From positions 1-64,000 of IMG/VR virus record IMGVR_UViG_3300050343_000190: DNA of 64,000 bases; one strand, given 5' to 3'. Made by a program: the position numbers and the translations under genes. Numbering within the stretch: the first letter of the stretch is position 1; each line of letters starts with the position of its first letter. The notes under the pieces are model-generated. The model worked only from the letters and a program-made list of their open reading frames with translations, searched no databases and was not told the DNA's origin. Shown piece by piece: positions 1 through 46,418 of this stretch. Origin of the DNA: a virus.

Positions 1-3000
1 AGTGTCGTTGAAAATACTATTGAGTTGCCTCAACACTTCTTTGTAACAGGAGAGGAAGTTGTATATTCTTATGATGTTCTTAATGAACCAATTGGAATTG
101 CTTCTACAGATGTTCCTGGAATTGGAGTTACTGATATATTACCATCTAAATTGTTTATCATCAAAGAGGATGAACTACTTGTAAGAGTTGCAGCCAGTGC
201 TACAGAGGCATTGTCTTTAATTCCCAACACCTTTTAATATTACAACTCTTGGAGTTGGATCCGATCATTATATAACCGCAAAGAATCAGAATCCTAAGAC
301 TCTGATCACTATTGATAATATGATCCAATCTCCTATTGTATCTACTGCTACTACAACGGGTGCTGGTAATACTTTTACAACTGTTCAAGATGTTCTTACT
401 TTAACTGAGCAACCAGAAAGATTCTTTAGTGGAGATTTTCTTCAGATTGACGATGAAATCGTAAGAGTATCCATTGTTGGATATGGCGGTTCTGATAATG
501 ATGTATATGTTCAGAGGCCAGTTTTAGGTACACTACTTGCAGATCACGTACAATTTGCAAAAATTACTAAGGTTATTGGTAATTACAATATTATCGATAA
601 TACACTTAGTTTTGCTGAGGCTAGTCTCCATATGGAAAAACTCCGATAGGATCTCCAGATAATCCTCCAGATCAAAGAGATTATAGTGGAATCACTACTT
701 TCTCTAGATTTAGTGGAAGATCGTTCATGAGAAATGGTCAAGTTGATTCTACAAATGATCCATACTACAAAAACTATATCTTTGACGGTATTGAAGATCA
801 ATTCACAGGAATTAAGAGTTCTTTTGAATTAAAAGTTGGTGGTCAAAGTGTTGATGGATTATCGGCAAGTAATGCTATTATTACAGTGAATGATTTATTC
901 CAATCACCTAAGGTAGATCAACTCAATGTTGATATTGAGGGAAACTACACTTTAGAAGAAGACAGTGGAGTAACAAATATCATCTTTGATGAAACATCTT
1001 ATGATAGAGAAGATGATATCATTATTAAAGGTCTTCCTGTTGGCGGTAGGATCGTCTCTGTTGGGTCTACAAAGGGATTTGGGTATCAATCACTAGTATC
1101 TGCTGCTGGAACTGCTACAGTGTCTTCTGCGGGAACCATTAGTGCTATTAACGTCTCTAACGTTGGTGGTGGATATCGAACTGGTATTCAAACTAATATT
1201 AATGTCTACATTCGTGAAGAAACAGTAGAGGCATCTAGTAAAGTTGCGATAGGAACTGCTCTTGTTACTAGAGGAAGAGTTACTGGAGTGGCTGTTACAA
1301 ATTCTGAGGTCTTCTACGCTCCTAGAGATATTTCTAACGTTGGTTATACTTCCATAACAGGTTTAACAACGGTTACAACATCTACAGCGCACGGATTATC
1401 TAAGGGGTAATGATATTGTTCTTTCTGGAATCGCAATGACTTGCGATTATGCTCTACCACTTACCGTAACAAATGCTCAATATGATAACATAACTGGAAT
1501 TATGACTGTTACCACTTCTGTGGGACATGGTTATAGCACATTCGGCAAACTCAGTGAAGTTATTCTAACTGGACTTGCATTTACTTGTGCATATGATGGT
1601 GGAGCGGGAATTCTTACTCACCCAAGAACAACAGATCCTGCATATAACGGTACAGGAGTAATTTCTGTTAATAGTGCTACCGAATTTGCTGTTAATGTTG
1701 GAGTTTCTACCACCGTTAACTTCTACACTAGTGGTGGAACTGCTCAGGGTATAATTATTGCCCCAAGACTCAACAATAATTCTGATAGTCAGTCAGATCC
1801 CTGCTTCGCAGTTTGTGAGTGTAAGAAGAGTTAATAGTGATACTGAGTTTGAAGTTAATACTGGTATTTCTACATTAGGTCACTTTTATGCTAGAGGTGG
1901 TAAAGTTGCGAAGTATCTAACTGTTGATTTTGATGATCCCTCTTCCATACGATAATCTGGCGCTACAACATATTCTACAACTTCAATCGGAGATACTGGA
2001 GGAAGATTTGCAAAGATTAGTGTTGTAGTTGGTGAAGGATCTAGTGTAACTGATTTTGATATAAAAAATGTTGGATATGGATATGAAATTAACAATGTAC
2101 TAACAGTTTCTGTTGGTGGAACGGATGGTATTCCTTACATGTATCACGGAAGATTCGCTGATGCTGGAAATCTTCTTACTTTTAACAGACAGTTCCTTGT
2201 TAAAGAAGAGCTGTTGGATATGCAACTGCTACATATCCTTCCCTACTTTCCAATCCAGATTATGATCAAACTAAGTGTGAAAGAGATACTGGGATTTATT
2301 GTTGATGCGTTAGCAAATGATCTCTTCTTTGGAGGAAACTTTAATTCTGTTGCAGCAGGAAATAAGTATTGGAATGGACCTCTAAATTATGTAACTGGAG
2401 AAACAATAGAAACCATTGCAACTTATGATTATCTTGCTGGTATTTCAACATTCGTTATAAACAATCAAATTCTACCTACTTCATATCAGGGTATTGCAGT
2501 CTCTGTTACCCAATTTACAGATGCTTCTATTGATTATGAAAATGGATCTTCATACACTCTTGATAGTTGTTCTGATGTTGCAACTTCAATTTCCAATCTA
2601 GTTGGAATTGTTACTACAATTATTGGTGATGGTGCAGCATATGCTCCACCAGTGATAAGTCCTTCTGCTAAACCAACACTTGCTTTACCAACAACATTAG
2701 ACTTTGATGAATTCAACTTCTATATTACTAAGACCCAAACTGATCAATTTACAGGATGGACAATTGGAGATCTTCAGGTTGTTGATGATATCAGTCCTCA
2801 GTTTAATGGAGATGCAACTAGATTTGCTATTAAATTTGATGGAGTTAGAACATCAATTAAAGCTGCTAAAGGATCTTTGATTGATGTTCAAGCAACGCTT
2901 CTAGTCTTTATTAATGATATTCTTCAAGTTCCTGGAGAGGCATATTTATTCCCAGGAGGTAGTACACTTCGCTTCTCAGAAGCCTCCAAAACTAGGAGAT

Positions 3001-20991: not shown

Positions 20992-21027
20992 CCCTACTAA
21001 ATAAAGACATACTAGAAAAAGACGAGA

Positions 21028-23460
21028 ATGTCCCAGCTATTCGTTGATACTATAAGAAATAGAGATGGTAATGGTGCCCCAGTTTTTGATAAGGGTGTCG
21101 TTATTTCAGGTATAATTACTGCATCGGGATCTCTTGCTGGCGATTCTGTTTCGATTGGAGTAACAGAGGTTGTTAGTTCAGGGTTTGAATTAAAAAATAT
21201 CATCGACTTAGATGCAACCACAACTGCAACAATAGAAGCTGCTATTGTTCTTGCACCAAATGATTTTGCAAGTCTAAATGTAAGTGGTATCTCTACTTTT
21301 GGATCTAATATTGATTTAAACGGAAACATTGATATATTAGGCCATACAGAAACTAATACATTAAATGCTACTGGAATTTTAACAGCAGCATTATTATCAA
21401 CAGGAACGGAAGGATCCGATATTAGGATATCTTCAAACACAATTAGTGGTCCAGCAACAATTACAATTGATCCTGCAGGTATTGGGACAAACACAGGAAC
21501 AGTTGTAATCAATGGCGATCTTCAAGTAGATGGAGATACAACAACCGTAAACTCAACTACTTTAACTGTAGACGATAAAAATATTATTCTTGCTAGTGGA
21601 TCCCTCACCGACGCATCCTCTGATGGTGGTGGTATTACACTAGAATCTGGAGAAGGAAATAAAACAATTAATTGGGTTGACTCTACAGATTCTTGGACAT
21701 TCTCCGAGAACATTGATCTTGCTGCTAGTAAGACTTTTAAAATTAGTGGAACAGATGTTCTTTCATCAACTACTGTAGGTTCAGTGTCTGTAACTAACTC
21801 TTCTCTTCAAAATGTAGGAACACTTGCAGGAGTTCAAGTTAGTGGTGCTGCTACAATCGGTGGAGATTTAGATGTAGATGGTCATACCAATCTTGATAAT
21901 GTAAATGTTTCTGGTGCTATCACTGCCACTACATTTACCGGTAATCTAGCTGGATCGATTAATACTGCGGAACAAACTAGTATAACCAAACTTGGTACAC
22001 TAACGGAACTTGATGTAACTGGACAAACAGATCTTAGAAATGTAAGTATTGTTGGAGTAACAACTTTCACAGGTAACATTGACGCTAATGCTGACTTAGA
22101 TGTCGATGGTCACACAAATCTCGATAACGTAAGTATTGCTGGTGTTGTAACAGCAACAACATTTGTTGGAAATGGTGACTTTGTAGAACTAGATGTAGAT
22201 GGTCATACCAATCTTGATAATGTGAGTATTGCTGGTGTAACTACAACTTCAGGTTTACTTGATATTAATGCTGGTGGACAAGCAAATACTTTCAAGGTAG
22301 AAGATCTAACAGATAACCGTGTTATTATTGCTGGAACTGGTGGTGAACTTGAGGACGATGCCAATCTAACCTTCAATGGATCTACCCTTGCAGTTGGTGT
22401 TAATTTAGATATAACTGGAGACCTAGATGTTGATGGTCATACCAACTTAGATAATGTAACTGTTGGTGGGGCTATTACAGCAACCACATTCACTGGTAGT
22501 TTGTCTGGAGAAGTTGATACAGCAGCACAACCAAACATTACTTCGGTTGGTACTCTAACAGGACTTACGATATCTGGTAACATTACTGCTCAAGCAGATT
22601 TGGATGTAGATGGTCATACCAATCTTGATAATGTGAGTATTGCTGGTGTTGTAACAGCAACAACATTTATTGGAAATGGTGACTTTGTAGAACTAGATGT
22701 AGATGGGCATACAAACTTAGATAACGTAAGTATTGCTGGAGTAACAACTTTTGCAGGTAACATTGACGCCGATGCTGACTTAGATGTTGATGGTCATACC
22801 AATCTTGATAATGTAAGTATTGCTGGAGTAACAACTTTTGCTTCTAGAGTTGAACTTGATGGAGATCTTGATGTTGACGGAACTACTGAGTTAGATGTTC
22901 TTAATGTTGCTGAAACTGCTACATTCTCCGCGAATATCGATGCTAACAAGTCTGTAGATGTTGCAGGAAATCTCAATACGCTTACTCTTAGAGCAGGACT
23001 TTCAACATTCACTGGATTTGTTTATGATGAATTAGATCCTGATACTAGTTTAAGAAATGCAGGAGACTTTAATAATATTACTGGTGTAGCATTTACTAGT
23101 GGTTCAACAGATACATTATATTGGGACTTTGCTACGGCACCTTCCGTAATTGGTGGCGAGGCTAGTAACGGAATAGAGAATATTGAACTCGCTGGTCTTC
23201 CAACAAATAGCAAATATATGGTGAGAGCAACTTTAATCACATTTACTGATGCTGCCAATGACTGGGACACTGGTAACGTTGTGCTTAAAGTTAATGGTCA
23301 GACACCAACAAACTATCTTTGGAGAAATGGTGCTCAACCAGTTGGTACGACAACAGGTTCATCAAATGCTTTTGATATTGTAGAATTCAAGATTGTTCAT
23401 GATACGAACGATGAGTTCAGTGTATTCGCTGAGTGGTCTGCTTATCACGCCTCTACTTGA
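21028..23460 (+). CDS. Tail fibre-like protein with internal tandem repeats
   Basis: 810-aa ORF with a GDLQVDGDTTTVNSTTLTVDDKNI shaft motif and seven DGHTNLDNV repeats. Confidence 0.75.
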   Translation: MSQLFVDTIRNRDGNGAPVFDKGVVISGIITASGSLAGDSVSIGVTEVVSSGFELKNIIDLDATTTATIEAAIVLAPNDFASLNVSGISTFGSNIDLNGNIDILGHTETNTLNATGILTAALLSTGTEGSDIRISSNTISGPATITIDPAGIGTNTGTVVINGDLQVDGDTTTVNSTTLTVDDKNIILASGSLTDASSDGGGITLESGEGNKTINWVDSTDSWTFSENIDLAASKTFKISGTDVLSSTTVGSVSVTNSSLQNVGTLAGVQVSGAATIGGDLDVDGHTNLDNVNVSGAITATTFTGNLAGSINTAEQTSITKLGTLTELDVTGQTDLRNVSIVGVTTFTGNIDANADLDVDGHTNLDNVSIAGVVTATTFVGNGDFVELDVDGHTNLDNVSIAGVTTTSGLLDINAGGQANTFKVEDLTDNRVIIAGTGGELEDDANLTFNGSTLAVGVNLDITGDLDVDGHTNLDNVTVGGAITATTFTGSLSGEVDTAAQPNITSVGTLTGLTISGNITAQADLDVDGHTNLDNVSIAGVVTATTFIGNGDFVELDVDGHTNLDNVSIAGVTTFAGNIDADADLDVDGHTNLDNVSIAGVTTFASRVELDGDLDVDGTTELDVLNVAETATFSANIDANKSVDVAGNLNTLTLRAGLSTFTGFVYDELDPDTSLRNAGDFNNITGVAFTSGSTDTLYWDFATAPSVIGGEASNGIENIELAGLPTNSKYMVRATLITFTDAANDWDTGNVVLKVNGQTPTNYLWRNGAQPVGTTTGSSNAFDIVEFKIVHDTNDEFSVFAEWSAYHAST
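21862..22900 (+). repeat. Coding repeat array (LDVDGHTNLDNVSIAG units)
   Basis: Seven exact DGHTNLDNV peptides plus degenerate copies. Blocks starting near 22141 and 22645 are almost identical at DNA level. Confidence 0.9.
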
Positions 23461-30897: not shown

Positions 30898-33800
30898 ATG
30901 TCAGATCCCCAAATTCGTTTAAAAAGGTCAACGGTAGCTGGTAAAATTCCAACTACATCACAACTTGCTCTTGGTGAAATAGCTGCTGTAAATGCTTTTG
31001 ATGGAGAAATATTTTTAAAGCAAGATACAGCAGGAGTTGGAATTGCAACTCGCGTCATTAGAGTTGGCGCTGGAGGATCTTTAGGTAAAACTATTTTTGT
31101 ATGTAAAGAAGGTAATGATGATAATACTGGTCTAAATGAAAAGGATGCAAAACTAACAATCAAAAAAGCTGCTGCAGAGATAGCAGAAATTTTTGATACT
31201 GTTAAAGTTTATCCTGGTGTATATGTTGAAAATAATCCTATTTTACTCGATAAGAACGTATCAGTAGAAGGTTTAGAATTAAGAAACTGTATTGTTTCTC
31301 CAGGAAATGCAGATAAAGATTTATTTCATGTAAATGATGGATGTCATCTAACTGACCTTGGATTTACAGGTTCGATGGACGCAGGTTCTGCTGCAGTCGC
31401 GTTTAGACCACTTGAAAGCGTAGCATCTGATAGATATTTTGACGCAGCAAGACTTATTCGCGTCAACTCAGATTTTATTGCAAGAGAAGCAGTCGGATTC
31501 CTAACCAGTGGATATAGTGGATATGCTGGTGGCCACCTTGAACAAGATGGTGCAAATGCTCTTGAGGCTAACTTAGATTATATTGCTCAAGAAGCAGTTG
31601 GTTATATTACAAGTACTGACTATAAAAATCCAGCATTTGTTGTTACCGATGTTGGTGGTGCTGCAGATGATCCACAAAACTGTAGAGATGATATTAAAGA
31701 TATACTTAAATCAGTTGCATACGACTTAAAGTCTACTGGTAATTTACAATCAGTAGGAGCAGCATTATCATATTTCACAGGTGGAGCTCTTGCTCATGTA
31801 ACGGGAACAGATACAAATGGTTATAGTATTGCCGATGCTACTGTCGCTGCTATTGATCGCGCTGCTGGTATCTCAACATATGTAATCAACCAGAGACCAT
31901 GGGCTAGTGTTGGTGCTGGTGGTACTACAAATGTTACTGGATTTACTTACGATAAATTAACTGGTATTGCAACAGTCACTTCTGTTGGTCATGGTGTAAC
32001 AACTGGTGATATTGTTGAACTAGAAGGAATTGAATTTACCTGTCCTGGAGGCAGCGGAGTTACAACCAGTATTTTCCCAGATGGTTCAAACGGAGAATAC
32101 TTTACAGTAACAGAATATGTTGGAGTAAATACTTTCAAAACAAATGTTGGTATTTCTTCAATCTCACATGCATACGATACTGGTGGAACAGTAGAGAAGT
32201 ACGTTAATTATTCTACCAATAAAACTCAAGCAATTGATCCTACAAGAAGAAACAAGAGAATCTTATATGATAATTCAAATAATAAGATCGTTGTAGGAAC
32301 AGGATGGTGTACTGGTGTAGGTAATAGCATCAGTTATCTTACAGGAATTACATCAAGTGCTATTGGTGCTGGTTCTTCCTCTGGTGTTGTTGGAATTATT
32401 ACTGGTATCAATCTCGATACATTCCGTTGCTCAAGAGACGTAAGAGATATTCTCAAAGCAGTTTGCTACGATATTACAAGGGGTGGATCTACAAAAGTAG
32501 TTGCTGCTGGTAAGACCTACTTTGATGAGTCATTGGCTCAAATTGGTATTTCCTCCTTTGCTGCTGCTACTCTCAGTAAATCTCCATTTGATGAAGTAAC
32601 ACAAACAATCCGTGCAGTCGATTATGCACAAGATATTATTCGTTGCGTAATCAATAACACAACATGGGGTGGAGTTTCTATCGGATACACAACTCCAATT
32701 AGTGATATTGATTGGGATACTAATACTGGTCTTGCAACTGTTACAACCAGATTTAATCACGATCTATCTAAAGATGATGGTATTGAAGTTACTGGACTAG
32801 GATTTACATGTCTTCCAGGATCTCCTGGAGATGAAACTACAATTCTTACTGCAACTTATGATAGTGTTACTGGTATTACTACGTTTGAAACATCAACGAA
32901 TCATGAATTAAAGTCTGGTAATGGTATCATAGTTACTTCTACAACTGGTAGTGATTTCAATAATCTGATTGTAGATGATAGTATGTCCTCTACTACATTT
33001 ACAGCAAGAGTTGGAAATGGACTTGCAGCATCTGCGGGTTTAACTGGAACGATTAAGGTTCAGCGTTACTACACTCCAGAAGTAGGAATTAACTCTGCTG
33101 TTTACGATAGAATCACAGGATTTACTACAATTGGATTTACAGACAGTGGTTCTAGTAGTTCAGATAATGATCCGGCATATATTGATAATGATGGTAAAGT
33201 TCGTCTTGAGAATTTGGTATTCCAGTGCGACTCTGGTGGTGGTCTTTCGACTCAGTATTTCCCCTCAGGTGCTCTTGGATTTGACTTCCCAGTAGAAAAA
33301 GTTGGTGGAGACAGATATCAAGATTCTGCAAACTTAATCGCTGGTAACAAACTAGAAATCACAGATAAGGCTCTTGCGAATATTGCTATTCTTCATCCAG
33401 ATTTCTTCTATCCTGGAGATAATCAGATTACAACAACATCCAGATATAAGGATGCATATCGTCTAATCCAACAGAACAAAGGTGAAATTGTTGGTGCAGC
33501 ATATACAAATGCTCAAGTAACATATCCATCAATCGATTCTACTAAGTTCAGAAGAAATCTGAATTACCTAGTAGATGCTGTTTCTACAGATATCTTCACC
33601 GGTGGTAATAACTATACCGTTTCTGTTACTAACAAATACTTTGATAATGGAGGTTCTCTGATTGGAGAAGGTGATGATTCTATTGCAGGTGTGACTGAGG
33701 AAACAATTATTGCCTTCAATGAAGCAAAATCTTTAATGAAGCAGGCGATTGCTAATCAGTTATCAACAAAAGATACAACAGTTTCTGGTGGTTCTAGTTA

Positions 33801-35976
33801 CTTTGGTGATGGAAGTCCTGCTATTGGTAATAGCGAAACTTACTCTTGTAGTGATGTTCAAGCATCTATCGATACACTTGTAAGCATTTCTACAGAAGCA
33901 TTTGGTGTTGCTAACTTAAATGTTGTTAATGGTCTTACTATTAACTATGGTAACTTCCCTGCTGGTGAGTTTAAGTGTAGAAGAGATATTGCATATGTTG
34001 TTGATTCTATCATAGATGATTTAAGAACAGATGGCAATAAGAACATTAGAGAGACAACTAGAAAGTACTTTGATGCTACTGGGGCACCTATTAGTGGTGG
34101 ATTGATTGGAGAAGAATCTGAATCTGTAACAGGATTTACATCTATTGGAGAATATGCAAAACTTGCTATCAACAATCTCCTCAATTACAAAGATTACACA
34201 ATTACCGCAGATCCAGCTGTAGGAATTAATTCCTCTCCTTCTGGTTGTGCCGACATTCGTGCTTCTATTGATAGTCTTGTCGGTATCATAACCACTCATG
34301 TTGGTGCAGGAAATCTAAACAACTTCCCAACACTTTCTATCGCAAGTTCTATTACAGTTAATACTGGTATTTCAACATTAGATCATACTTACGTTGGTGG
34401 TGGTAGTGCTTTCGTTGGAATCACAACAACCGTATTCCCAGATGGAACATTTGGAAATATCTTTAACGTTGATACGATCGTTGGACCCACAACGTTTACT
34501 ACAAACTTTGGACCTAGTGATATTTCTCACACATATGCTACAAATACTGGTAACATCCTGAAGTTCCAACCATTTACTAAGAACTCTGGTTATGCTGGCG
34601 GACAAATCAAAGATGAGTCTATTCAATATGATCCTAGAGTTAATAGTAACACAAGCCCTGCTGGATGTAAGAACGTTCAGAGTGCTATCGATACTGTTAT
34701 TGGTATTGTTACCTCTATTGTTGGTGGTGGAATTACTGCAATTCAAGGTCCTGTAAATCCAACTGGTATTACCACAAGATTTGAAGGATTTGATGGTGTA
34801 GGTTACAACCCAGCAGAAGGTGAGGATGCCGATCTAAACTTTAGTCCTGGATGTGGACAGATCTTCAAAGGTCCATATGTAAGAAACTGTACAAACTTTA
34901 TCTTTGATAGCATCGGTCTGAAGATCGATGGATTTGCTGCAGAACCTGGAGATGAGGATGAAATTGGTGTTCAGGGTTCCATGTCGGTTGACTCTTACAC
35001 GCAGTACAACCAGAGAGGAATTGGTGTATCGATTACAAACGGATCTTATGCTCAGTTGGTGTCTATCTTCACAATTTGCTGCGACGAAGCAATCGTAACA
35101 TCAAGTGGTGGTCAGTGTGACTTGACTAACTCTAACTCTTCCTTCGGAAGAATTGGTCTTATCTCTAATGGAATTAGTGATGCTACAACTAAGTCTATCT
35201 ACAGACAGACAGGAAAGGTTGTTAATGCTGCATCCGCTAATGATATTACATTAGAAGTAAGTGGTCTTGGAACACAAAGACCTTATGATGGTCAGGTGTA
35301 TTATATCGATCAACTTTACTATTCATTAGCAGAAATTTCAATCACTAATGGTGGATCTGGATATAACATTCCAAACGATGCAATCGTTACAATTGAGTCT
35401 CCAACAGGACCAAATGGAATTTCTGCACAGGCAATTCCTACAGTTGAAAATGGAGCAGTAACAGCAGTTACTCTTATTAACACTGGTACTCAATATGAGA
35501 CAAGAACACCAAATGTAAGCATTGCAGCGCCTCCTGGAGGTGGTACACAAGCAACTGCGGAAGTAAGTAAGAGTGATCCTTTATATTATAAAGTTGGTGC
35601 TGCAACCTTCCCAAGAGCAGGTATTTCAACTATCACTGCTGTTGCTGGGTTAAATAATGATGTAGGTGCTGGAGCTACTGTTTATCTAAGTCGCCAGAGT
35701 TTACAAATTACATCTTCTCACTCGTTTGAATATGTTGGTGCAGGTAATGATATCTTCACCGCAAGGCCTGGTGTTGGTGGTGTAACCATCCAAGAAAACG
35801 AGGTTGTTAAAGAAGAAGGTGGTGAAGTTATTTTCACATCTACTGACCAGGCAGGTAACTTTAGAATTGGTGATGGTGTTACCATCAACCAAGCAACTGG
35901 AACGATTACAGGTAGAACATACCTTAAATCTCTATTCAACAACGTAACACCATTCATTCTAGCACTAGGAGATTAA
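30898..35976 (+). CDS. 1692-aa tailspike-like protein: pectin-lyase-type beta-helix frame with a large insert of phycobiliprotein-like helical domains and small beta domains
   Basis: N-terminal IRLKRSTVAGKIP..LALGE. Beta-helix cap IFVCKEGNDDNTG..AKLTIKKA..VKVYPGVYVE. The helix resumes at GPYVRNCTNF..YTQYNQRGIGVSITNGSYAQLVS. Ends STDQAGNFRIG. Confidence 0.75.
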   Translation: MSDPQIRLKRSTVAGKIPTTSQLALGEIAAVNAFDGEIFLKQDTAGVGIATRVIRVGAGGSLGKTIFVCKEGNDDNTGLNEKDAKLTIKKAAAEIAEIFDTVKVYPGVYVENNPILLDKNVSVEGLELRNCIVSPGNADKDLFHVNDGCHLTDLGFTGSMDAGSAAVAFRPLESVASDRYFDAARLIRVNSDFIAREAVGFLTSGYSGYAGGHLEQDGANALEANLDYIAQEAVGYITSTDYKNPAFVVTDVGGAADDPQNCRDDIKDILKSVAYDLKSTGNLQSVGAALSYFTGGALAHVTGTDTNGYSIADATVAAIDRAAGISTYVINQRPWASVGAGGTTNVTGFTYDKLTGIATVTSVGHGVTTGDIVELEGIEFTCPGGSGVTTSIFPDGSNGEYFTVTEYVGVNTFKTNVGISSISHAYDTGGTVEKYVNYSTNKTQAIDPTRRNKRILYDNSNNKIVVGTGWCTGVGNSISYLTGITSSAIGAGSSSGVVGIITGINLDTFRCSRDVRDILKAVCYDITRGGSTKVVAAGKTYFDESLAQIGISSFAAATLSKSPFDEVTQTIRAVDYAQDIIRCVINNTTWGGVSIGYTTPISDIDWDTNTGLATVTTRFNHDLSKDDGIEVTGLGFTCLPGSPGDETTILTATYDSVTGITTFETSTNHELKSGNGIIVTSTTGSDFNNLIVDDSMSSTTFTARVGNGLAASAGLTGTIKVQRYYTPEVGINSAVYDRITGFTTIGFTDSGSSSSDNDPAYIDNDGKVRLENLVFQCDSGGGLSTQYFPSGALGFDFPVEKVGGDRYQDSANLIAGNKLEITDKALANIAILHPDFFYPGDNQITTTSRYKDAYRLIQQNKGEIVGAAYTNAQVTYPSIDSTKFRRNLNYLVDAVSTDIFTGGNNYTVSVTNKYFDNGGSLIGEGDDSIAGVTEETIIAFNEAKSLMKQAIANQLSTKDTTVSGGSSYFGDGSPAIGNSETYSCSDVQASIDTLVSISTEAFGVANLNVVNGLTINYGNFPAGEFKCRRDIAYVVDSIIDDLRTDGNKNIRETTRKYFDATGAPISGGLIGEESESVTGFTSIGEYAKLAINNLLNYKDYTITADPAVGINSSPSGCADIRASIDSLVGIITTHVGAGNLNNFPTLSIASSITVNTGISTLDHTYVGGGSAFVGITTTVFPDGTFGNIFNVDTIVGPTTFTTNFGPSDISHTYATNTGNILKFQPFTKNSGYAGGQIKDESIQYDPRVNSNTSPAGCKNVQSAIDTVIGIVTSIVGGGITAIQGPVNPTGITTRFEGFDGVGYNPAEGEDADLNFSPGCGQIFKGPYVRNCTNFIFDSIGLKIDGFAAEPGDEDEIGVQGSMSVDSYTQYNQRGIGVSITNGSYAQLVSIFTICCDEAIVTSSGGQCDLTNSNSSFGRIGLISNGISDATTKSIYRQTGKVVNAASANDITLEVSGLGTQRPYDGQVYYIDQLYYSLAEISITNGGSGYNIPNDAIVTIESPTGPNGISAQAIPTVENGAVTAVTLINTGTQYETRTPNVSIAAPPGGGTQATAEVSKSDPLYYKVGAATFPRAGISTITAVAGLNNDVGAGATVYLSRQSLQITSSHSFEYVGAGNDIFTARPGVGGVTIQENEVVKEEGGEVIFTSTDQAGNFRIGDGVTINQATGTITGRTYLKSLFNNVTPFILALGD

Positions 35977-38544: not shown

Positions 38545-39147
38545 ATGTCTAATATTGATGAAGCAACAAGAATACCTTCAAAGGTCGGCAACCTTATGAT
38601 GGTTGTTGTGACTTGGAAAGGAAGAACATATGTTTTAAAAATGTTCTTCCCTCAAGCAAAACTTCCTTCAAGAAAAGAAGTTGAAGCACAAATGCAAGGA
38701 ATTTATCCTGGATCTAAAGTAAAATATACATCTGTTTCTGAGAAAGAACCTGGTGAAACCTTCTTATATGCAGAAGAGATTGAGATTGAAGAGAAAGCAA
38801 AGGATTGTTGGGACACCCACAAGAAAGTGGGTATGAAAATGAAAGGTGGTAAATTAGTAAATGATTGCCGTCCAAAGAATGAAGAAACGGAAGTTTCGGA
38901 AGGTGCTGCATGGACTAAGAAGTCTGGTAAAAATAAAGAAGGTGGTCTCAATGAAAAAGGACGTAAGTCTTATGAAGCAGAAAATCCTGGTAGTGATCTG
39001 AAAGCACCATCTAAAAAGAAAGGTAATAAAAGAAGAGCATCATTCTGTGCAAGAATGAAAGGTATGAAGAAGAAATTAACCTCTGCTAAAACTGCTAGAG
39101 ATCCCGATAGCAGAATTAATAAAAGTTTGAGAGCTTGGAATTGTTGA
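38545..39147 (+). CDS. Basic modular protein, putative internal head protein
   Basis: GAAWTKKSGKNKEGGLNEKGRKSY...RRASFCARMKGM...SRINKSLRAWNC. Modules are separated by Glu-rich linkers; a late promoter lies upstream. Confidence 0.65.
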   Translation: MSNIDEATRIPSKVGNLMMVVVTWKGRTYVLKMFFPQAKLPSRKEVEAQMQGIYPGSKVKYTSVSEKEPGETFLYAEEIEIEEKAKDCWDTHKKVGMKMKGGKLVNDCRPKNEETEVSEGAAWTKKSGKNKEGGLNEKGRKSYEAENPGSDLKAPSKKKGNKRRASFCARMKGMKKKLTSAKTARDPDSRINKSLRAWNC

Positions 39148-39154
39148 TTGATTT

Positions 39155-40807
39155 ATGAGTGAAATTTATCTTGGTAATCCAAATCTAAAAAAAGCAAATA
39201 CTAAAATAGAATTTACAGAGGAACAAATTCTTGAGTTCCTCAAATGTAAAGAAGATCCAGTATATTTTGCTAAAAATTATGTGCAAATTGTCTCTCTTGA
39301 TAAGGGTCTAGTTCCTTTTGAGATGTATCCATTTCAGGAAAAACTGGTAAACAATTTTCATGAAAACAGATTCAATATTTGTAAGATGCCTCGTCAGACT
39401 GGTAAGTCTACGACTGTGGTATCTTATCTTCTTCACTACGCAGTCTTTAACGATAGTGTTAATATTGGTATCCTTGCTAACAAGGCAGCAACCGCCAGGG
39501 AACTGTTAGGTAGATTACAAACTGCATATGAAAACCTGCCCAAGTGGATGCAACAGGGTATAATAGCATGGAATAAAGGATCTTTGGAGTTAGAAAATGG
39601 GAGTAAAATACTGGCAGCTCTTCTACGTCTGCAAGTGCTGTCCGAGGTATGTCTTTTAACATCCTCTTTCTCGATGAGTTCGCATTTGTCCCAAATCACA
39701 TTGCTGACTCGTTCTTTGCCTCTGTTTATCCTACTATTACTTCTGGTAAAAGTACCAAAGTAATTATCGTGTCTACACCACATGGTATGAATCATTTCTA
39801 CCGAATGTGGCATGATGCAGAAAGAAGTAAAAATGATTACATTCCCACAGACGTTCATTGGTCGGAAGTTCCTGGACGTGATGCAAAGTGGAAACAACAA
39901 ACTATTGCTAACACATCAGAGCAGCAGTTCAAGGTTGAGTTTGAATGTGAGTTTTTAGGATCTATCGATACATTGATAGCTCCGAGTAAATTGCGATCAA
40001 TGGCTTTATGATACTCCTCTAAGGCAAAGTGCAGGATTGGATATTTACGAACTACCAAAAGAAGGGCATGATTATATTGTTACAGTAGACGTTGCTAGAG
40101 GTGTTAGTGAAGATTACTCAGCATTTGTGGTTGTAGATATTACAGAGTTTCCCCATAAGATAGTTTCAAAATATAAGAATAATACAATCAAACCTATGTT
40201 GTTTCCAAATATAATATGGGAAATAGCAAGAAATTATAATCAAGCATATATTTTATGTGAGGTAAATGATATTGGCGATCAAGTAGCATCATTACTTCAC
40301 TATGATCTTGAGTATCAAAACGTTCTTATGTGTTCAATGAGAGGACGTGCTGGACAAATTGTTGGTCAAGGATTCAGTGGAAAGAAGACTCAATTGGGAG
40401 TCAAAATGTCTAAGACTGTTAAGAAAGTAGGGTCTCTCAATCTTAAAGCATTAATCGAAGAGGATAAATTAATATTTAATGACTATGATATCATATCAGA
40501 ATTAACTACATTTATTTCAAAGCACAATTCTTTTGAAGCAGAAGAGGGTTGTAATGATGACCTTGCGATGTGTCTTGTGATTTATGCATGGTTGGTTCTT
40601 CAAGATTACTTTAAAGAACTAACCGATCAAGATGTTAGAAAGAGAATTTATGAAGAACAGAAAAATCAAATAGAACAGGATATGGCTCCTTTTGGATTTA
40701 TTGATGATGGATTAGATAACTCCACTTTTATAGATGCTGAAGGAGATAGATGGTCTAATGCGACTAGTGAATATGGTGATATGTCGTATATGTGGGATTA
40801 TCAGTGA
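39155..40807 (+). CDS. gp17: Terminase large subunit gp17 (frameshifts near 39620 and 40005)
   Basis: YLGNPNLKKAN, Walker A PRQTGKST, Walker B LFLDEFAFV, and nuclease motifs VDVARG and NDDLAMC. Confidence 0.96.
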
Positions 40808-41049
40808 TTAGATTGTTAAAATTATTGAGTAATGTAGTTGATCCTAATTGGTGGGCGGAAGTAGTTGGTAAAAAATTTGGTTTATATGATTGGGCTAGCA
40901 AACCAAATAAATTTAAAGAATGGAAATTAAAACAACCATTATGGAAACAACTTTTCATTGAAGTCTTGATGCTTACGCTTTTAGCGTTAGCATTTGAACC
41001 AGTATTAAATATGTTAGGATATTCGATGCTCCCTTGGAGATGGTTCTAA
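40804..41049 (+). CDS. Small membrane-associated hypothetical protein
   Basis: Trp-rich ORF with hydrophobic segment LFIEVLMLTLLALAF, overlapping both neighbours. Confidence 0.55.
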   Translation: MIRLLKLLSNVVDPNWWAEVVGKKFGLYDWASKPNKFKEWKLKQPLWKQLFIEVLMLTLLALAFEPVLNMLGYSMLPWRWF

Positions 41050-41279
41050 TGGATTTAGATAGTCAAATAAAACTTGGTCATCTTTTATTAACAGACAGAA
41101 AGTGTAGAATTTGCGATAAGACTAAGAATCTAATAGAAGACTTTTATAGAACAAGAAAGGACAGAGGAGCAGTTCCATCCTCATGGTCATATGAATGTAA
41201 AGACTGTACTATAAAGAGAATTGTTGAAAGTAGAAAAAAACAAACGCCATTTGTTGATTGGTTATATCCAGACTGGTAG
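41049..41279 (+). CDS. Small Zn-finger protein
   Basis: CRIC...FY...YECKDC (two CxxC motifs), ending YPDW. Confidence 0.7.
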   Translation: MDLDSQIKLGHLLLTDRKCRICDKTKNLIEDFYRTRKDRGAVPSSWSYECKDCTIKRIVESRKKQTPFVDWLYPDW

Positions 41280-41358
41280 TTCACGCGGCATTTCCCCACT
41301 GAAAATGCAACTTTTAATAAATATTTCAAGTTAACTGAAACCCTTACAGGAGAAAAAC

Positions 41359-43819
41359 ATGGCGACTCCTCAATTATCTCCTGGTGTATTAACCAGGGAA
41401 GTGGACCTAACGGTAGGAAGAGCTGAGAATGTTTTAGATAATATTGGCGCTATCGCAGGACCCTTCCCTATTGGTCCCGTGGAAGATCCAACTGATGTGG
41501 CCACCGAGCAAGAACTCATCACAGAGTTCGGCAAACCAAGTAATAATAACAACCAGTATGAGTACTGGCTTGCAGCATCATCTTTCCTTTCATACGGCGG
41601 CGTACTGAAAGTTGTAAGAACTGATGGCGATAACCTGAAGAACGCATACCGAGGATTTGGTGCTTCAGGTTCTGCACCAAAAGTAAAAAATTACGAAGAC
41701 TATCAAGATAACCAGTCTGCAGATTCTGTAGATTGGGCATTCGCTGCCAAGAACCCAGGAGAATGGGCAAATGGTATTAAAGTCTGCGTTATCGACGATT
41801 TAGCAGACCAAAGACTAACTGTTAATAATGCTAACCTAGATGGTTTTAGCGTTGGAACAGGTATTACTTACACCCTATCAGGTGTAACAGTTCCAAATGC
41901 TTCTAATGGTACTACCTCTACATTTGATGGTTTCTTAAAAGGTATCATTACAGGTAAAGATGAATCAAATAAAACCATTGATGTAAAAATTACATCAAGA
42001 GTTTCCGTTGGTTCTACAGCAAGCGTAGTTGCAAGATCTCAGACAACAGTTGGTATTCATACTGTTGCAGATTCAGTTATTACTGTTGGATCTACTGCTG
42101 GTATATCTACATCTTCTGCTCTCACCGCAGAATTTGGAGATGGAACAGGATTCTTTAGTGTAGTCAGTGTTCTTTCTGGTAACAGAGTAACATTGGGAAG
42201 CACAATTGGTAGTAGTGTTGCTGCAGGCGTTGCAGTTACATTCTCTAATCTGATTTCTAATGCAGGTTCGATCACTGCTATTAACTATGCAGAAGGAGTA
42301 ACAGGATCTGCATTCCCATCTAGTGGAGTAATTTACTCACATTCAAGTGATGGTACATCGTCCGTTCCTTTCAGCATCACAAATGCAGTTGATTGGTATG
42401 ATCAACAGACACTTGGATTAACAAATTCCACAGTTTTCTGGAAGAACATCGCACCAAAAGCCAGTTACAAGTAGACATTCTACTGAAAGATCTGGTAAAG
42501 GAGATGCTCTCCACATTGCTGTCTATGATGATGAAGGAAAAGTAACAGGAATTCAAGGAAATCTTCTTGAGAAGCATACTTTCCTCTCTAAGGCTACAGA
42601 TACAATTTCTGCAGTCAATTCTCCCCTGAAGGTATTCTATAAGGATTATCTCGCAGATAGATCCGAATACATTTTTGCAGGAGCAAATCTCGGTGATGAG
42701 AATGATTCCTTTAACGGAACAACAATTACTGCTATTGATTTCCAAACAAATACAACAGGAACTGCTTCAGCAAATACAACTGCACAATGGTCTGGAATCT
42801 CTACAGGATCTGGTTCTTGGAACACATTAGCACAAGGAATTTCCTTTAATGCTATTGGTGCTGCAACTTATGATCTTACAGGTGGTCAAGATTATGGTGC
42901 ATCACAAGGAATGCAAGCAACTCTTAGTGATGTAATTTCTGGATATTCTTTACTAACAAATAAAGATGAAGTAGAGGTTGACTTTGTACTTGGCGGTCCT
43001 GGACTTGCACAAGAAGATGAGTCTAGAGCAAAAGCAAACTATCTGATTTCCCTGGTTAACCAGAGAAAGGATTGCATGGCAACAATTTCTCCTCATAAAG
43101 CAAATGTTGTTGATGTTGCAAATTCTGATACTGCAACAGATAATGTTATCGCATTCTATTCGTCACTAACATCTTCATCGTATGCTGTATTCGATACTGG
43201 ATACAAGTACATGTATGATAGATTTAATGATAAGTTCCGTTATGTTCCAACCAACGGAGACGTTGGTGGTTTGATGGTAAGAACTAATCTTATCGCTTAT
43301 CCATGGTTCTCCCCCGCTGGTCTTCAGAGAGGACAACTTAATAATGCAATCAAACTTGCATTTAATCCATCCAAGGCTCAAAGAGATAGACTCTATCCAA
43401 GAAGAATTAACTCCATTGTTAATCAGTCTGGTTCAGGAATTCTGTTGTTCGGTGATAAGACCGCACTTGCTGTTTCTTCCGCATTCGATCGTATCAATGT
43501 TCGTCGTCTCTTCCTCACAGTTGAGCAAGCACTGCAAAAAGCAGCAGAGTCACAACTCTTTGAACTTAATGATCAGATCACAAGAGCAAACTTTGTTAAT
43601 ATCGTAGAACCTTATCTCCGCGATATTCAAGCAAAGAGAGGTATTTATGATTATCTGGTTATTTGTGATAAAACAAATAACACTCCAGATGTCATTGATA
43701 ATAATGAGTTTAGAGCAGACATCTTCCTGAAGCCTGCTAAATCAATCAACTTCGTTACACTTACTTTCGTTGCTACGAGAACAGGTGTAAGTTTTGAAGA
43801 AGTTGCTGGTAGAGTTTAA
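41359..43819 (+). CDS. gp18: Tail sheath protein gp18 (frameshift near 42460)
   Basis: LSPGVLTREVDLT, PWFSPAG..RG, FGDKT..SAFDRINVRRLF, KPAKSINFVTLTFVATRTG. Confidence 0.96.
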
Positions 43820-43848
43820 TTTATTATAAAAAATAGGAGGAACCCCAA

Positions 43849-44478
43849 ATGTCTACTTTACGCACAATTACTGACTTCAAAACCGCCCTTCAGGGCGGCG
43901 GCGCTAGAGCTAATTTATTTGAAGTCGATATTCCAACAATTCCAGCAGTAGCAACTCAAGGTATTGATTGGGATGCAGAAAACTTCCAGTTCCTGTGTAA
44001 GGCTGCGGCACTTCCCGCATCCAACGTTGCACCTATCGATGTTCCCTTCAGAGGTCGTACTCTGAAGGTTGCTGGAGATAGAACTATTGAAAACTGGACT
44101 GTAACCGTCATTAACGATGAAGACTTCAAATTAGAAATGCGATGGAAGCATGGATGAATGCAATTGCCAAACTCAGTAATAACACTGGTGCGGTACAAAC
44201 CCCTCTTCCTACATGACAAGATGCTTTGTTTATCAACTTGGAAGAGGTTGCTCATCAAGGTAGATTTAGTCAAACAAATTCTGCGTACTATCGATGGAGG
44301 TTCTGGAGTTAACTCCTTTAGAAACATATCAAATTCTTGATATTTTCCCAGTTTCTGTTTCTCAATTGATCTTTCTTACGATTCGGCAGATACGATTGAA
44401 GAGTTTACTGTAGAATTTGCAGTTCAATCTTTTGAATCTCAGGCTCTGGTGGACGCAACTGGCGTTGCTCTGAACTAA
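43849..44478 (+). CDS. gp19: Tail tube protein gp19 (frameshifted)
   Basis: GGGARANLFEV, FLCKAAALPAS, VPFRGRTLKVAGDRT..WTVTVINDEDF, later DTIEEFTVEF. Confidence 0.93.
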
Positions 44479-44509
44479 TAAATAGAAGAGATAAAGTTCC
44501 AATATAATA

Positions 44510-46166: not shown

Positions 46167-46174
46167 TATAAATA
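46167..46174 (+). promoter_or_regulatory. T4-type late promoter TATAAATA
   Basis: Perfect consensus immediately after the gp20 stop. Confidence 0.8.
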
Positions 46175-46203
46175 AATTGTAATCGTAGTACAGAATTATT
46201 AAC

Positions 46204-46386: not shown

Positions 46387-46418
46387 ATAAATAACTCTTA
46401 TAAGACACTTTTAAGTTC

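What the first reader, a model, noticed from the sequence alone, without database searches (positions are those of the whole stretch)
31432..34730. Four phycobiliprotein-like domains with bilin-attachment signatures inside a tailspike: possible pigmented or light-responsive virion
SEEN: four copies of a helical module. Opening helices are RYFDAARLIRVNSDFIAREAV, EQDGANALEANLDYIAQEAV, RYQDSANLIAGNKLEITDKAL and RYKDAYRLIQQNKGEIVGAAY. Central helices are NCRDDIKDILKSVAYDLKSTGN (Cys 31681), RCSRDVRDILKAVCYDITRGG (32428), KCRRDIAYVVDSIIDDLRTDGN (33976) and KFRRNLNYLVDAVSTDIFTGGN (Cys lost). Closing helices are WCTGVGNSISYL (32308), SCSDVQASIDTL (33847), GCADIRASIDSL (34246) and GCKNVQSAIDTV (34666). 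KNOWN: phycocyanin/phycoerythrin subunits show, in this same order, RLDAVN.I..NA..IV..A, then KCxRDIGYYLR.V.Y.L..GG, then GDCSALASEIASYFD. The Asp of the first is the counter-ion of the beta155 bilin, the second holds the alpha84/beta82 bilin Cys plus Arg-Asp, and the third holds the beta155 bilin Cys. INFERENCE: these are globin-fold phycobiliprotein homologues lacking the X/Y dimerisation helices. All four keep the beta155-type Cys and Asp, and three keep the beta82-type Cys. Many cyanomyoviruses encode ho1, pebS/pcyA and a T-type lyase CpeT; T-type lyases serve the beta155-type site, and the phage enzyme's substrate is unclear. These domains may be that substrate, giving bilin-decorated particles for light-gated adsorption, photoprotection or host mimicry. 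None of those enzyme genes is in this window.
Basis: partly seen in the sequence, partly recalled or inferred. Interest (0 to 1): 0.93.

Follow-up and report, generated by a model that had tools for sequence, protein, structure and literature searches.

The report
Phycobiliprotein-like domains nested in cyanophage fibre
A tail-fibre protein of a marine cyanobacterial virus contains four nested domains that are true relatives of the host's light-harvesting pigment proteins and mostly keep the pigment-attachment residues, so it can now be tested whether the virus particle carries pigment and senses light; pigment binding itself is not shown.

Summary
Observation confirmed. All twelve motifs lie at the stated coordinates in one 1692-aa ORF (30898-35976, +).

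What the modules are:
- They are about 150-aa globin domains of the phycobiliprotein (PBP) family without the X/Y helices.
- A profile of the module retrieves almost only PBPs from PDB sequences (E 3e-5). A confident AlphaFold model matches phycoerythrin beta at Z 16, rmsd 1.8 Å.
- The four domains are nested like Russian dolls, with beta-domains in the G-H loops.

Site conservation:
- Across 588 non-redundant copies the Cys84-type C-x-R-D site is 98% conserved.
- When the Cys is lost, Arg and Asp are lost with it, while fold-determining residues stay. This marks a functional ligand site.
- The beta155-type Cys is invariant in all four domains of 25 orthologues.

Distribution:
- Among 50,697 phage records the module occurs only in T4-like cyanophages.
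- It is present in phages reported not to adsorb in the dark (S-PM2, P-HM1/2) and absent from P-SSM2 and P-SSP7, which do.

CpeT link: suggestive only. cpeT occurs only in genomes with a module ORF and is adjacent to the fibre gene in five genera. Counter-examples exist (P-SSM3/4, G043, B23).

Bilin binding is inferred, not shown. This scan flagged the same theme on eight other genomes; six literature searches found no published report.

The parts
30898..35976 (+). ORF of 1692 aa: fibre/tailspike-like virion protein that carries the four PBP-like domains
   Evidence: PHROGs phrog_17885 'tail fiber protein' E 3e-237 and phrog_3442. Full-length orthologues at 45-95% identity.
30898..31431 (+). 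N-terminal fibre-attachment region (aa 1-178); the sequence looks like the start of a beta-helix
   Evidence: Conserved among 25 orthologues. No Pfam match. The beta-helix reading is from sequence pattern only.
31432..31509 (+). D1 segment a: opening helix pair (aa 179-204), Asp182 = Asp39-type
   Evidence: hmm 4-36 at 31426-31524; helices 2-11 and 13-26 of the large model.
31531..32373 (+). D2 (aa 212-492), inserted between helices B and E of D1. Central motif C262-R-D-D (Cys codon 31681). Closing Cys471 (32308). Carries its own beta-domain insert at 31909-32295.
   Evidence: hmm 8-108, E 7e-10. Helix/strand layout of the model. Cys262 and Cys471 invariant in 25 orthologues.
32410..32655 (+). 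D1 segment b: helices E to G (aa 505-586) with intact C511-S-R-D (Cys codon 32428)
   Evidence: hmm 36-112, E 8e-10; model helices 331-407; orthologue table.
32674..33303 (+). Beta-strand domains (aa 593-802) sitting in the G-H loop of D1; repeated motif F-x-C-x-x-G-G...F-P-x-G-x-x-G-x-x-F-x-V
   Evidence: Strands 415-624 of the model; sequence. Function unknown.
33310..33396 (+). D3 segment a: opening helix pair (aa 805-833), Asp809
   Evidence: hmm 5-36; model helices 627-654. The only stretch of this protein that Pfam PF00502 touches (aa 809-855).
33430..33909 (+). D4 (aa 845-1004): the only uninterrupted domain, inserted between helices B and E of D3. Central site dead (K-F883-R-R-N886). 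Closing Cys984 (33847) kept.
   Evidence: hmm 2-150, E 3e-52. AF2 pLDDT 87.6, pTM 0.85. PE beta Z 16.0, rmsd 1.8 Å over 134 residues. In-frame check.
33910..34308 (+). D3 segment b: helices E to H (aa 1005-1137) with intact K-C1027-R-R-D (33976) and closing Cys1117 (34246)
   Evidence: hmm 28-150, E 3e-40. KCRRD and the closing Cys are invariant in all 25 orthologues.
34348..34569 (+). Beta-strand domain (aa 1151-1224) between D3 and the closing helix of D1
   Evidence: Strands 973-1046 of the model.
34663..34722 (+). D1 segment c: closing helix (aa 1256-1275) with Cys1257 (34666)
   Evidence: hmm 112-149, E 7e-7, at 34603-34716; model helix 1080-1096; Cys invariant in orthologues.
34795..35976 (+). 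C-terminal part (aa 1300-1692): highly conserved, beta-helix-like, then distal fibre end
   Evidence: PHROG best stretches 1186-1692 and 1217-1690. Dense near-invariant columns in A2. 76% nucleotide match to the Sf-CH5 'major tail protein'.
2148..2621 (+). Fifth PBP-like module, in a frameshift-broken giant baseplate-wedge-like gene at the window's start. Closing S-C-S-D-V is kept. An intact K-C-E-R-D (Cys codon 2276) is readable only in a neighbouring frame.
   Evidence: hmm 5-150, E 3e-23. Translation. phrog_2885 baseplate wedge, positions 3654-3753 of 4179. Alternative frame.

Best explanation
The ORF encodes a virion fibre of a T4-like marine cyanophage. Four phycobiliprotein-family globin domains are built into it, one inside another.

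Shown:
- The domains are homologous to PBPs in sequence and in fold, and they lack the X/Y helices.
- The Cys84-type C-x-R-D site behaves as a functional ligand site across the family. It is intact in D1 and D3, is a variant (C-x-D-D) in D2, and has recently decayed in D4.
- A second Cys at the beta155-equivalent place is invariant in this fibre family.
- The two Cys are lost independently of each other.

Inferred:
- While the fibre is made in the infected cell, bilin from the host (or from phage HO/FDBR in Prochlorococcus phages) is attached by thioether to these Cys.
- Attachment at the Cys84-type site could be autocatalytic, as in BBAGs and ApcE, or use host S/U- or E/F-type lyases.
- Attachment at the closing Cys could use T-type lyases (host or phage CpeT).
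- The released particle would then carry tens to hundreds of bilins on its fibres and baseplate.

Speculative: light absorbed by these bilins changes fibre conformation or receptor engagement. That would account for the light-dependent adsorption of S-PM2 and P-HM1/2.
For: Homology:
- The A1 profile against 177,635 PDB sequences returns almost only PBPs (57 of the 60 best rows). The best is CpcA at E 3.1e-5, with module C-x-R-D on K-C84-A-R-D and helix B aligned.
- Five of five homologues pass the PF00502 gathering score at 30-43 bits.
- 19 of 37 single modules hit PF00502 (E <= 1, best 7e-6); no other family is hit by more than 3.
- AF2 of D4 gives pLDDT 87.6.
- The Foldseek top 50 are all PBPs.
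- VIA-align gives PE beta Z 16.0 at 1.8 Å over 134 residues, and ApcE Z 14.4. The next non-PBP globin scores 10.9.

Functional site, from 588 non-redundant copies:
- Cys43 is present in 575.
- Asp46 is present in 575 of 575 Cys-bearing copies but only 6 of 13 Cys-less ones (p = 4e-13).
- Arg45 p = 3e-6; E/Q88 p = 1e-4.
- D57, Y73 and N63 are unaffected by loss of the Cys.
- The Cys is replaced mostly by F, Y or W (10 of 13), as if filling a pocket.

Closing Cys:
- It is present at 100 of 100 positions in 25 orthologues.
- It maps to PC-beta Cys153 by alignments of model 668-825 onto chain 33-172.
- It is independent of Cys43 (p = 0.27), so the two do not form an obligate disulfide pair.

Host restriction: 326 of 50,697 phage records hold the module, all of them cyanophages. 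None of roughly 1,450 T4-like phages of heterotrophs holds it.

Phenotype fit:
- S-PM2 has 13 module matches and P-HM1/P-HM2 have 5 each.
- P-SSM2 and P-SSP7 have none.
- The dark-adsorption data are in PMC6628666.

CpeT: it occurs only in genomes with a module ORF, and cpeT lies next to the fibre gene in S-PM2, Syn1, S-RSM4, S-WAM2 and S-CAM1.

Literature: CXRD is the bilin motif of PBPs and of the self-attaching BBAGs (PMC10151467).
Against: - No chromophore was observed. Everything about pigment is inference from homology and conservation.
- My literature searches found no report of coloured or fluorescent purified cyanophage particles.
- PBPs and BBAGs are generally not photoswitches.
- P-SSM3 and P-SSM4 carry CpeT and PcyA but their modules have no Cys.
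- P-SSM2 carries an FDBR without any module.
- G043 has CpeT but no closing Cys. B23, ACG-2014d, ACG-2014f and G026 have modules without CpeT.
- The phenotype correlation rests on only two independent lineages on each side.
- All isolates with the module belong to one viral family, so host restriction may simply reflect descent.
- Module-specific invariants (D57, GGN, Y73) have no PBP counterpart that I could show.
Confidence: 0.5

Rival explanations
1. Apo structural module. A PBP gene captured from a cyanobacterial host was exapted as a rigid helical spacer in fibres and baseplate proteins and binds no pigment. The conserved Cys, Arg and Asp serve packing, salt bridges or inter-chain (trimer) disulfides in the extracellular particle.
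For: - The modules occur in arrays of up to 30 per genome fragment and 22 per protein, like structural repeats.
- D4 folds confidently without the Cys or the Asp.
- P-SSM3 and P-SSM4 keep Cys-less modules.
- Module-specific invariants D57, GGN and Y73 are retained whatever the site state.
- The literature searches found no report of pigmented virions.
Against: - A purely structural Cys would drift to Ala, Ser or Val over 20-25% identity. Instead it is 98% kept.
- Its loss is coupled to loss of Arg and Asp, which are exactly the PBP bilin ligands (p = 4e-13).
- The two Cys are lost independently, and many modules have a single Cys, so an intradomain disulfide is excluded.
Confidence: 0.27
2. 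The pocket binds a ligand other than bilin. The PBP cleft has been retooled to bind a host-surface molecule or a metal, making the modules receptor-binding or sensing domains unrelated to light.
For: - The correlated-loss pattern shows a functional site but does not identify the ligand.
- The protein is a fibre.
- Fibre proteins commonly carry inserted binding domains (general knowledge).
Against: - The residues kept are precisely the bilin-contacting triad of PBPs and BBAGs, at the same spacing.
- The modules sit internally and nested, not at the distal tip.
- Restriction to cyanophages fits a ligand available in cyanobacterial cytoplasm.
Confidence: 0.18
3. The resemblance to PBPs is convergent or a chance motif match in an unrelated helical bundle.
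For: - The window protein itself scores only 15.3 bits (E 0.02) on PF00502, below the gathering score.
- Foldseek E-values are about 1e-2.
- Helical bundles give inflated Z-scores (tool note).
Against: Independent lines agree:
- Profile against PDB sequences at E 3e-5, with almost only PBPs listed.
- PF00502 above the gathering score in 5 of 5 homologues.
- 134 of 158 residues superpose at 1.8 Å, with PBPs ranked above all other globins.
- The motif order helix B, Pro, C-x-R-D-x-G-Y, G-G is shared.
Confidence: 0.03

Closest known systems
Light-harvesting phycobiliprotein subunits (Pfam PF00502: CpcA/B, CpeA/B, ApcA/B)
   Same: - Globin-type fold, helices B to H.
- Helix-B motif.
- C-x-R-D-x-G-Y with Cys at the 82/84 position.
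- G-G after helix E.
- A second Cys at the beta153/155 position, with an Asp at the Asp39 position.
   Different: - No X/Y helices, so no alpha-beta monomer or disc assembly.
- Embedded, nested and repeated inside giant virion proteins.
- Shorter B-E loop.
- Own invariants (D57, G-G-N, Y73).
- 10-20% identity.
- Chromophore not shown.
Bilin biosynthesis-associated globins BBAG-1/-3 (Rockwell, Martin, Lagarias 2023, PMC10151467)
   Same: PBP paralogues outside the phycobilisome that carry CXRD. BBAGs attach bilins without a lyase, which offers a precedent for lyase-free loading of the phage modules.
   Different: - BBAGs are small, stand-alone cellular proteins clustered with HO and FDBR genes.
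- The phage modules are domains of structural proteins.
- No HO or FDBR lies next to them. In G043 these genes are about 140 kb away.
- I did not place the modules phylogenetically relative to BBAGs.
ApcE (core-membrane linker) phycobiliprotein domain
   Same: A PBP domain that is part of a large multidomain polypeptide, is interrupted by an inserted loop, and (by established knowledge) binds its bilin autocatalytically. It is the second-best structural match (4xxi_A, Z 14.4).
   Different: - ApcE has a single PBP domain, inside the phycobilisome.
- Its bilin Cys is not at position 84.
- Here whole domains, not a loop, are inserted, and the protein leaves the cell on a virus particle.
Bilin photoreceptors (phytochromes, cyanobacteriochromes; photochemically active alpha-phycoerythrocyanin)
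   Same: This is what the fibre modules might work like: a thioether-bound bilin whose photoisomerisation changes protein conformation.
   Different: - GAF-fold photoreceptors are unrelated in fold.
- No photochemistry is known for PBP-fold proteins other than alpha-PEC (my own knowledge).
- Nothing here tests photochemistry.

Membership tests
Phycobiliprotein family (Pfam PF00502) | Sequence match to the family profile above Pfam's gathering score (22.2 bits) | tested here: inconclusive
   - The window protein itself scores 15.3 bits, E 0.02, below the cut-off.
- Homologues P0002, P0009, P0030, P0038 and P0094 score 30-43 bits, all above it.
- 19 of 37 single modules hit PF00502 (E <= 1, best 7e-6).
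- The reverse search, module profile against PDB sequences, gives E 3e-5 to CpcA.
Phycobiliprotein family (Pfam PF00502) | PBP-type globin fold (helices B, E, F', G, H) | tested here: met
   - D4 model has pLDDT 87.6.
- PE beta 5aqd_M: Z 16.0, rmsd 1.8 Å, 134 of 158 residues aligned.
- The eight best VIA hits are all PBPs or ApcE.
- The Foldseek top 50 are all PBPs.
Phycobiliprotein family (Pfam PF00502) | Cys82/84 bilin site with the C-x-R-D motif | tested here: met
   - The motif is aligned residue for residue on CpcA K-C-A-R-D-I-G-Y-Y.
- In this protein D1 (C-S-R-D) and D3 (C-R-R-D) are intact, D2 is C-R-D-D, and D4 is lost (F-R-R-N).
- Family-wide: C 97%, R 94%, D 98%.
Phycobiliprotein family (Pfam PF00502) | Beta153/155-type second Cys before helix H, with Asp39 partner (beta subunits) | tested here: met
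   - PC-beta chains align 33-172 onto model 668-825. This places Cys984 on residue 153, assuming an ungapped last helix; no residue-level alignment was displayed.
- The Cys is invariant 100 of 100 times in orthologues.
- Cys133 and Asp9 are associated, p = 2e-60, but this is confounded by subfamily.
- The Cys is only 49% conserved family-wide.
Phycobiliprotein family (Pfam PF00502) | N-terminal X/Y helices that build alpha-beta monomers and discs | tested here: not met
   Structural and profile alignments start at PBP residues 30-37. The module begins directly with helix B.
Phycobiliprotein family (Pfam PF00502) | Covalently bound bilin chromophore | not testable with these tools
   Requires co-expression with bilin synthesis genes, or spectroscopy and mass spectrometry of virions.
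BBAG bilin-binding globins (PMC10151467) | Gene clustered with heme oxygenase and a ferredoxin-dependent bilin reductase | tested here: not met
   - None is in the 86-kb record, which is only 45% complete.
- In the complete genome G043, HO and FDBR lie at 197-198 kb and the modules at 52-59 kb.
- No Synechococcus phage of the 20 sampled has an FDBR.
Heme globins / globin-coupled sensors | Conserved proximal histidine ligating heme | tested here: not met
   His is not among the four commonest residues of any of the 152 profile columns over 704 copies. Heme globins and sensor globins rank below all PBPs (Z <= 10.9).
Phage tail fibre / baseplate structural proteins | Similarity to known virion fibre families and position in a structural gene block | tested here: met
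   - phrog_17885 'tail fiber protein' E 3e-237.
- Neighbours are baseplate wedge, neck and sheath-stabiliser genes and further fibre proteins.
- The S-PM2, S-RSM4 and Syn1 homologues are annotated as tail fibre or short tail fibre proteins.

The most novel reading that the evidence does not exclude
Most marine T4-like cyanophages leave the cell with bilins covalently bound to PBP-derived domains in their fibres and baseplate, and use them as a virion-borne photoreceptor that gates adsorption. This would be the first light-sensing virus particle. It would explain the light-dependent adsorption of S-PM2 and P-HM1/2, and part of the purpose of phage cpeT and bilin-synthesis genes.
Probability: 0.2. 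Interest if true: 0.97.

Novelty: new variant of a known kind. Interest (0 to 1): 0.85.

Why it matters
Two questions in cyanophage biology have stayed open for more than fifteen years.

1. Why do some cyanophages adsorb only in the light, independently of host photosynthesis? [quoted passage not shown]
2. What are phage cpeT, pebS, pcyA and ho1 for? Reviews and genome papers call their roles "a mystery" and "unresolved" (PMC3037559, PMC2984593).

PBP-family domains with a conserved, functionally constrained bilin-attachment site inside the fibres give both questions a concrete candidate that is cheap to test. The results also make testable predictions:
- P-SSM3, P-SSM4, P-SSM2 and SynMITS9220M01 should adsorb in the dark.
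- S-RSM4, S-WAM2 and Syn1 should not.

The modules also add a large, virus-borne branch to the bilin-binding globin family, which bears on the origin of phycobiliproteins. The nested-domain arrangement (two levels of globin-in-globin nesting, plus beta-domain inserts) is unusual protein architecture in its own right.

Tried and rejected
Steps that failed or gave limited information:
- The search for related loci with the 37-sequence alignment failed because no stretch was conserved enough. I replaced it with a degenerate DNA pattern for K-C-x-R-D-x-G-[YF]-x-[VIL]-D-x4-D.
- Co-occurrence in IMG/VR contigs was uninformative: 48 of 50 records are 8-52% complete fragments.
- VIA-align on the 1097-aa model aligned every PBP chain to D4 only. 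D1-D3 therefore rest on HMM pieces and helix layout, not on a fold match.
- I could not display a residue-level alignment of the closing Cys to beta-Cys153/155. HMMER's PE-beta coordinates (profile 5-138 against 37-176) would put it about 10 residues later, while the structural ranges put it exactly on 153. A single-module phmmer search aligned only the CXRD region.
- Gasper et al. 2017 on the phage CpeT is not held.

Hypotheses rejected:
- Intradomain disulfide between the two Cys. They are lost independently (p = 0.27), and many modules carry only one of them.
- Heme binding. There is no conserved His.
- MAG taxon labels as evidence of host. The 18 real hits are short contigs binned into many phyla, and two of the MAGs carry psbA (one on the module contig itself). 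The 6 hits on large or isolate genomes were chance pattern matches with no HMM support.
- "The module occurs only in phages with CpeT" (earlier finding). Four counter-examples exist; only the reverse implication holds.
- D4's lost site as a frameshift artefact. It is in frame and is shared by the five closest metagenomic relatives (P0019, P0021-P0024).
Full report
**1. The observation**

The region lies in one ORF, 30898-35976 (+), of 1692 aa.

PHROGs places the protein among tail-fibre families: phrog_17885 at E 3e-237, and phrog_3442. Its neighbours are baseplate-wedge, neck, sheath-stabiliser and further fibre genes. The window belongs to an 86-kb IMG/VR fragment estimated 45% complete. Its nearest cultured relatives are marine Synechococcus myoviruses.

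**2. The module is real and widespread**

An HMM seeded on the uninterrupted copy (D4, aa 845-1002) finds 704 full copies of about 150 aa in 240 of the 265 related proteins held at that point. A search of 1.84 billion representative proteins finds 368 proteins at E <= 1e-3. Most are giants of 1000-8000 aa, with up to 22 matched stretches each.

**3. Architecture in this protein**

The HMM pieces occur in this order:
- D1 opening (hmm 4-36)
- D2 opening to helix G (hmm 8-108)
- D1 helices E to G (hmm 36-112)
- D3 opening (hmm 5-36)
- D4 complete (hmm 2-150)
- D3 helices E to H (hmm 28-150)
- D1 closing helix (hmm 112-149)

A 1097-aa AlphaFold model built with 25 orthologues (pLDDT 75, pTM 0.56) shows the matching succession of helix groups, separated by beta-strand domains. 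The domains are therefore nested:
- D2 sits in the B-E loop of D1.
- D4 sits in the B-E loop of D3.
- D3/D4 together with beta domains sit in the G-H loop of D1.
- D2 has its own beta insert in its G-H loop.

Only D4 could be confirmed by fold search, because every PBP chain aligned to D4 in the large model.

**4. Homology to phycobiliproteins**

The window protein alone gives only a sub-threshold PF00502 hit (15.3 bits). The wider evidence is much stronger:
- Five of five homologues tested pass Pfam's gathering score at 30-43 bits.
- 19 of 37 single modules hit PF00502, with a best E-value of 7e-6. No other family is hit by more than three.
- A profile of 37 diverse modules, searched against all 177,635 distinct PDB sequences, returns almost exclusively PBPs. 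The best is C-phycocyanin alpha at E 3.1e-5. Helix B and K-C-x-R-D-I-G-Y...G-G align on CpcA residues 39-103, so the module Cys falls on Cys84, Arg on Arg86 and Asp on Asp87.
- The D4 model (pLDDT 87.6, pTM 0.85) has only PBPs in its 50 best Foldseek hits (TM 0.47-0.67).
- In an exhaustive VIA-align search, phycoerythrin beta scores Z 16.0 with rmsd 1.8 Å over 134 of 158 residues. ApcE, allophycocyanins and PE alpha follow at Z 12-14. The first non-PBP globins (RsbR, photocobilin, sensor globins) score at most 10.9.
- Alignments begin at PBP residues 30-37, so the X/Y helices are absent.

**5. Is the bilin site merely a relic?**

Over 704 copies the central motif is C 97%, R 94% and D 98%.

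I reduced the set to 588 copies at 80% identity:
- 575 copies keep the Cys, and every one of them keeps the Asp.
- Of the 13 Cys-less copies, only 6 keep the Asp (p = 4e-13) and only 6 keep the Arg (p = 3e-6).
- An E/Q at profile column 88 also decays (p = 1e-4).
- D57, Y73 and the G-G-N turn are unaffected.
- The Cys is replaced by F, Y or W in 10 of the 13 cases.

This is the signature of a ligand site that is dispensable for folding but under joint functional constraint. The aromatic substitutions are consistent with a pocket being filled.

CXRD is the bilin-attachment motif of PBPs and of BBAG-1/-3, and BBAGs attach bilins without a lyase (PMC10151467).

The states in this protein are:
- D1: C-S-R-D, intact.
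- D3: C-R-R-D, intact and invariant in 25 orthologues.
- D2: C-R-D-D, a recurrent C-x-[DE]-D variant.
- D4: F-R-R-N. This is a recent loss confined to the window's clade, in frame, and shared by five independent metagenomic sequences.

**6. The closing Cys**

Family-wide the closing Cys is only 49% conserved. In the orthologues of this fibre, however, it is present at all 100 positions (four domains in 25 proteins). That includes D4 of the window clade, where the central site is dead.

PC-beta chains align residues 33-172 onto model residues 668-825. This places Cys984 on residue 153, the beta155 consensus site, and aa 883 near residue 82. It is an end-anchored inference, because the residue-level alignment was not shown.

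Loss of the two Cys is uncorrelated (p = 0.27), and whole subfamilies have only one of them. They are therefore not a disulfide pair.

**7. Distribution**

tblastn of aa 806-1141 against 50,697 phage records finds 326 records, every one a cyanophage (Synechococcus 255, Cyanophage 58, Prochlorococcus 12, Marine 1). A gp15 marker finds 1,921 T4-like records, including about 1,450 from heterotroph hosts and Pelagibacter phage HTVC008M. None of those carries the module.

Metagenomic contigs carrying the module are numerous:
- At least 120 IMG/VR contigs hold it.
- 18 MAG contigs hold real modules and are binned into many phyla, probably wrongly. One of them carries a psbA itself, and another MAG has a psbA on one of its contigs.
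- No isolate bacterial genome has the module.

**8. Link to bilin genes**

In 26 isolate genomes:
- module ORF and CpeT both present: 20
- module only: 3 (ACG-2014f, ACG-2014d, B23)
- neither: 3 (P-SSM2, SynMITS9220M01, HTVC008M)
- CpeT only: 0

This gives one-sided p = 0.008, or 0.015 for the 17 genomes that were not chosen for having the module.

Long-form cpeT lies 0.7-1.5 kb upstream of a giant module-rich fibre gene, on the same strand, in S-PM2, Syn1, S-RSM4, S-WAM2 and S-CAM1. These represent five genera. In S-PM2 and Syn1 a 2OG-Fe(II) oxygenase lies between the two genes.

Reading the site states weakens this link:
- P-SSM3 and P-SSM4 have CpeT and an FDBR, but their modules have no Cys at either site.
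- The complete genome G043 has HO, FDBR and CpeT and 13 CXRD modules, but no closing Cys.
- G026 and B23 have Cys-bearing modules and no CpeT.
- Against Cys-bearing modules the association is p = 0.06.

FDBR genes follow the host: they are in 6 of 6 Prochlorococcus phages and 0 of 20 others. P-SSM2 has one without any module. The phage bilin genes therefore cannot exist only to serve these domains. Kinship among genomes also inflates all of these tests.

**9. Link to light-dependent adsorption**

According to PMC6628666:
- P-HM1 and P-HM2 do not adsorb in the dark.
- P-SSM2 and the podoviruses P-SSP7 and P-GSP1 do adsorb in the dark.
- S-PM2 adsorption is light-dependent and independent of host photosynthesis.

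Module matches are S-PM2 13, P-HM1 5, P-HM2 5, P-SSM2 0 and P-SSP7 0. The fit is perfect, but it rests on only two independent lineages per class. It is a lead, not a result.

**10. Verdict**

The homology and the functional constraint on the Cys84-type site are shown. Covalent bilin attachment is the most economical reading (about 0.5). A light-gating role is speculative (about 0.2). The main rivals are an apo structural module and a pocket retooled for another ligand.

Six literature searches found no report of PBP-like domains in phage fibres. The scan's own records show eight earlier findings of the same theme on other genomes.

Noticed in passing
window 39000-50500: The T4-type core genes are each split over several short reading frames: terminase large subunit (39152-40807), tail sheath (about 42400-43819), portal gp20 (about 44500-45994), scaffold (48081-48467) and major capsid gp23 (48780-49935). 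Pfam matches cover only parts of the profiles, for example gp23 positions 134-361 of 376. This looks like many indel errors in the assembly (or pseudogenes), yet the 5-kb fibre ORF next door is intact.
   Followed up: partly
window 1-3008: The window starts inside what looks like one giant baseplate-wedge-like gene (phrog_2885, profile positions about 3190-3750 of 4179) broken into at least six frame pieces. It holds a fifth PBP-like module (2148-2621). Its K-C-E-R-D is readable only in a neighbouring frame (Cys codon 2276), so two compensating frameshifts disrupt it.
   Followed up: partly
window 32020-32100, 32790-32860, 33200-33290, 34420-34500 (aa about 375-400, 632-655, 770-797, 1175-1200): The beta-strand domains inserted in the G-H loops share a repeated motif F-x-C-x-x-G-G...T..F-P-x-G-x-x-G-x-x-F-x-V, with conserved Cys382, Cys638 and Cys777. 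There is no Pfam match, only phrog_1276 (unknown function).
   Followed up: no
L165 (S-PM2 NC_006820.1 165928-177267): The RefSeq record annotates 16 tRNA genes inside the giant 'short tail fiber protein' CDS, all sharing the locus tag S-PM2t009. This is most likely a coordinate or annotation artefact of the record.
   Followed up: no
L165 and L166 (S-PM2 165307-165888; Syn1 20572-21144): A 2OG-Fe(II) oxygenase (T4-like GC 104) sits between cpeT and the module-rich fibre gene in both S-PM2 and Syn1. It could be a modifying enzyme of the fibre or of its ligand. Not tested.
   Followed up: no
G043 (IMGVR_UViG_3300034050_000451, 270,865 bp, complete): This complete 271-kb phage genome has no psbA. 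It has an adjacent heme oxygenase and bilin reductase (197155-198278), a CpeT (218192-218758) and 14 modules, 13 of them with CXRD (52-59 kb). It is a candidate for bilin use by a phage that does not carry photosystem genes.
   Followed up: partly
26 isolate genomes: Ferredoxin-dependent bilin reductase genes are present in all six phages isolated on Prochlorococcus and in none of the 20 others. Their presence tracks the host rather than the module.
   Followed up: partly
L203 (PBPT01000016.1, 335,231-bp contig of a Neomarinimicrobiota MAG): A 335-kb contig binned as Neomarinimicrobiota carries a 2536-aa open frame with at least four modules. There is no psbA in the MAG. It may be a jumbo phage genome or a prophage.
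   Followed up: no
large model, residues 640-654 (aa 818-832): In the 1097-aa model many cryptophyte and red-algal beta chains align from their residue 3-8 onward (model 636-643 to 825). They use the opening helix of the enclosing domain D3 in the place of the PBP X/Y helices next to D4. This may be an alignment artefact.
   Followed up: no
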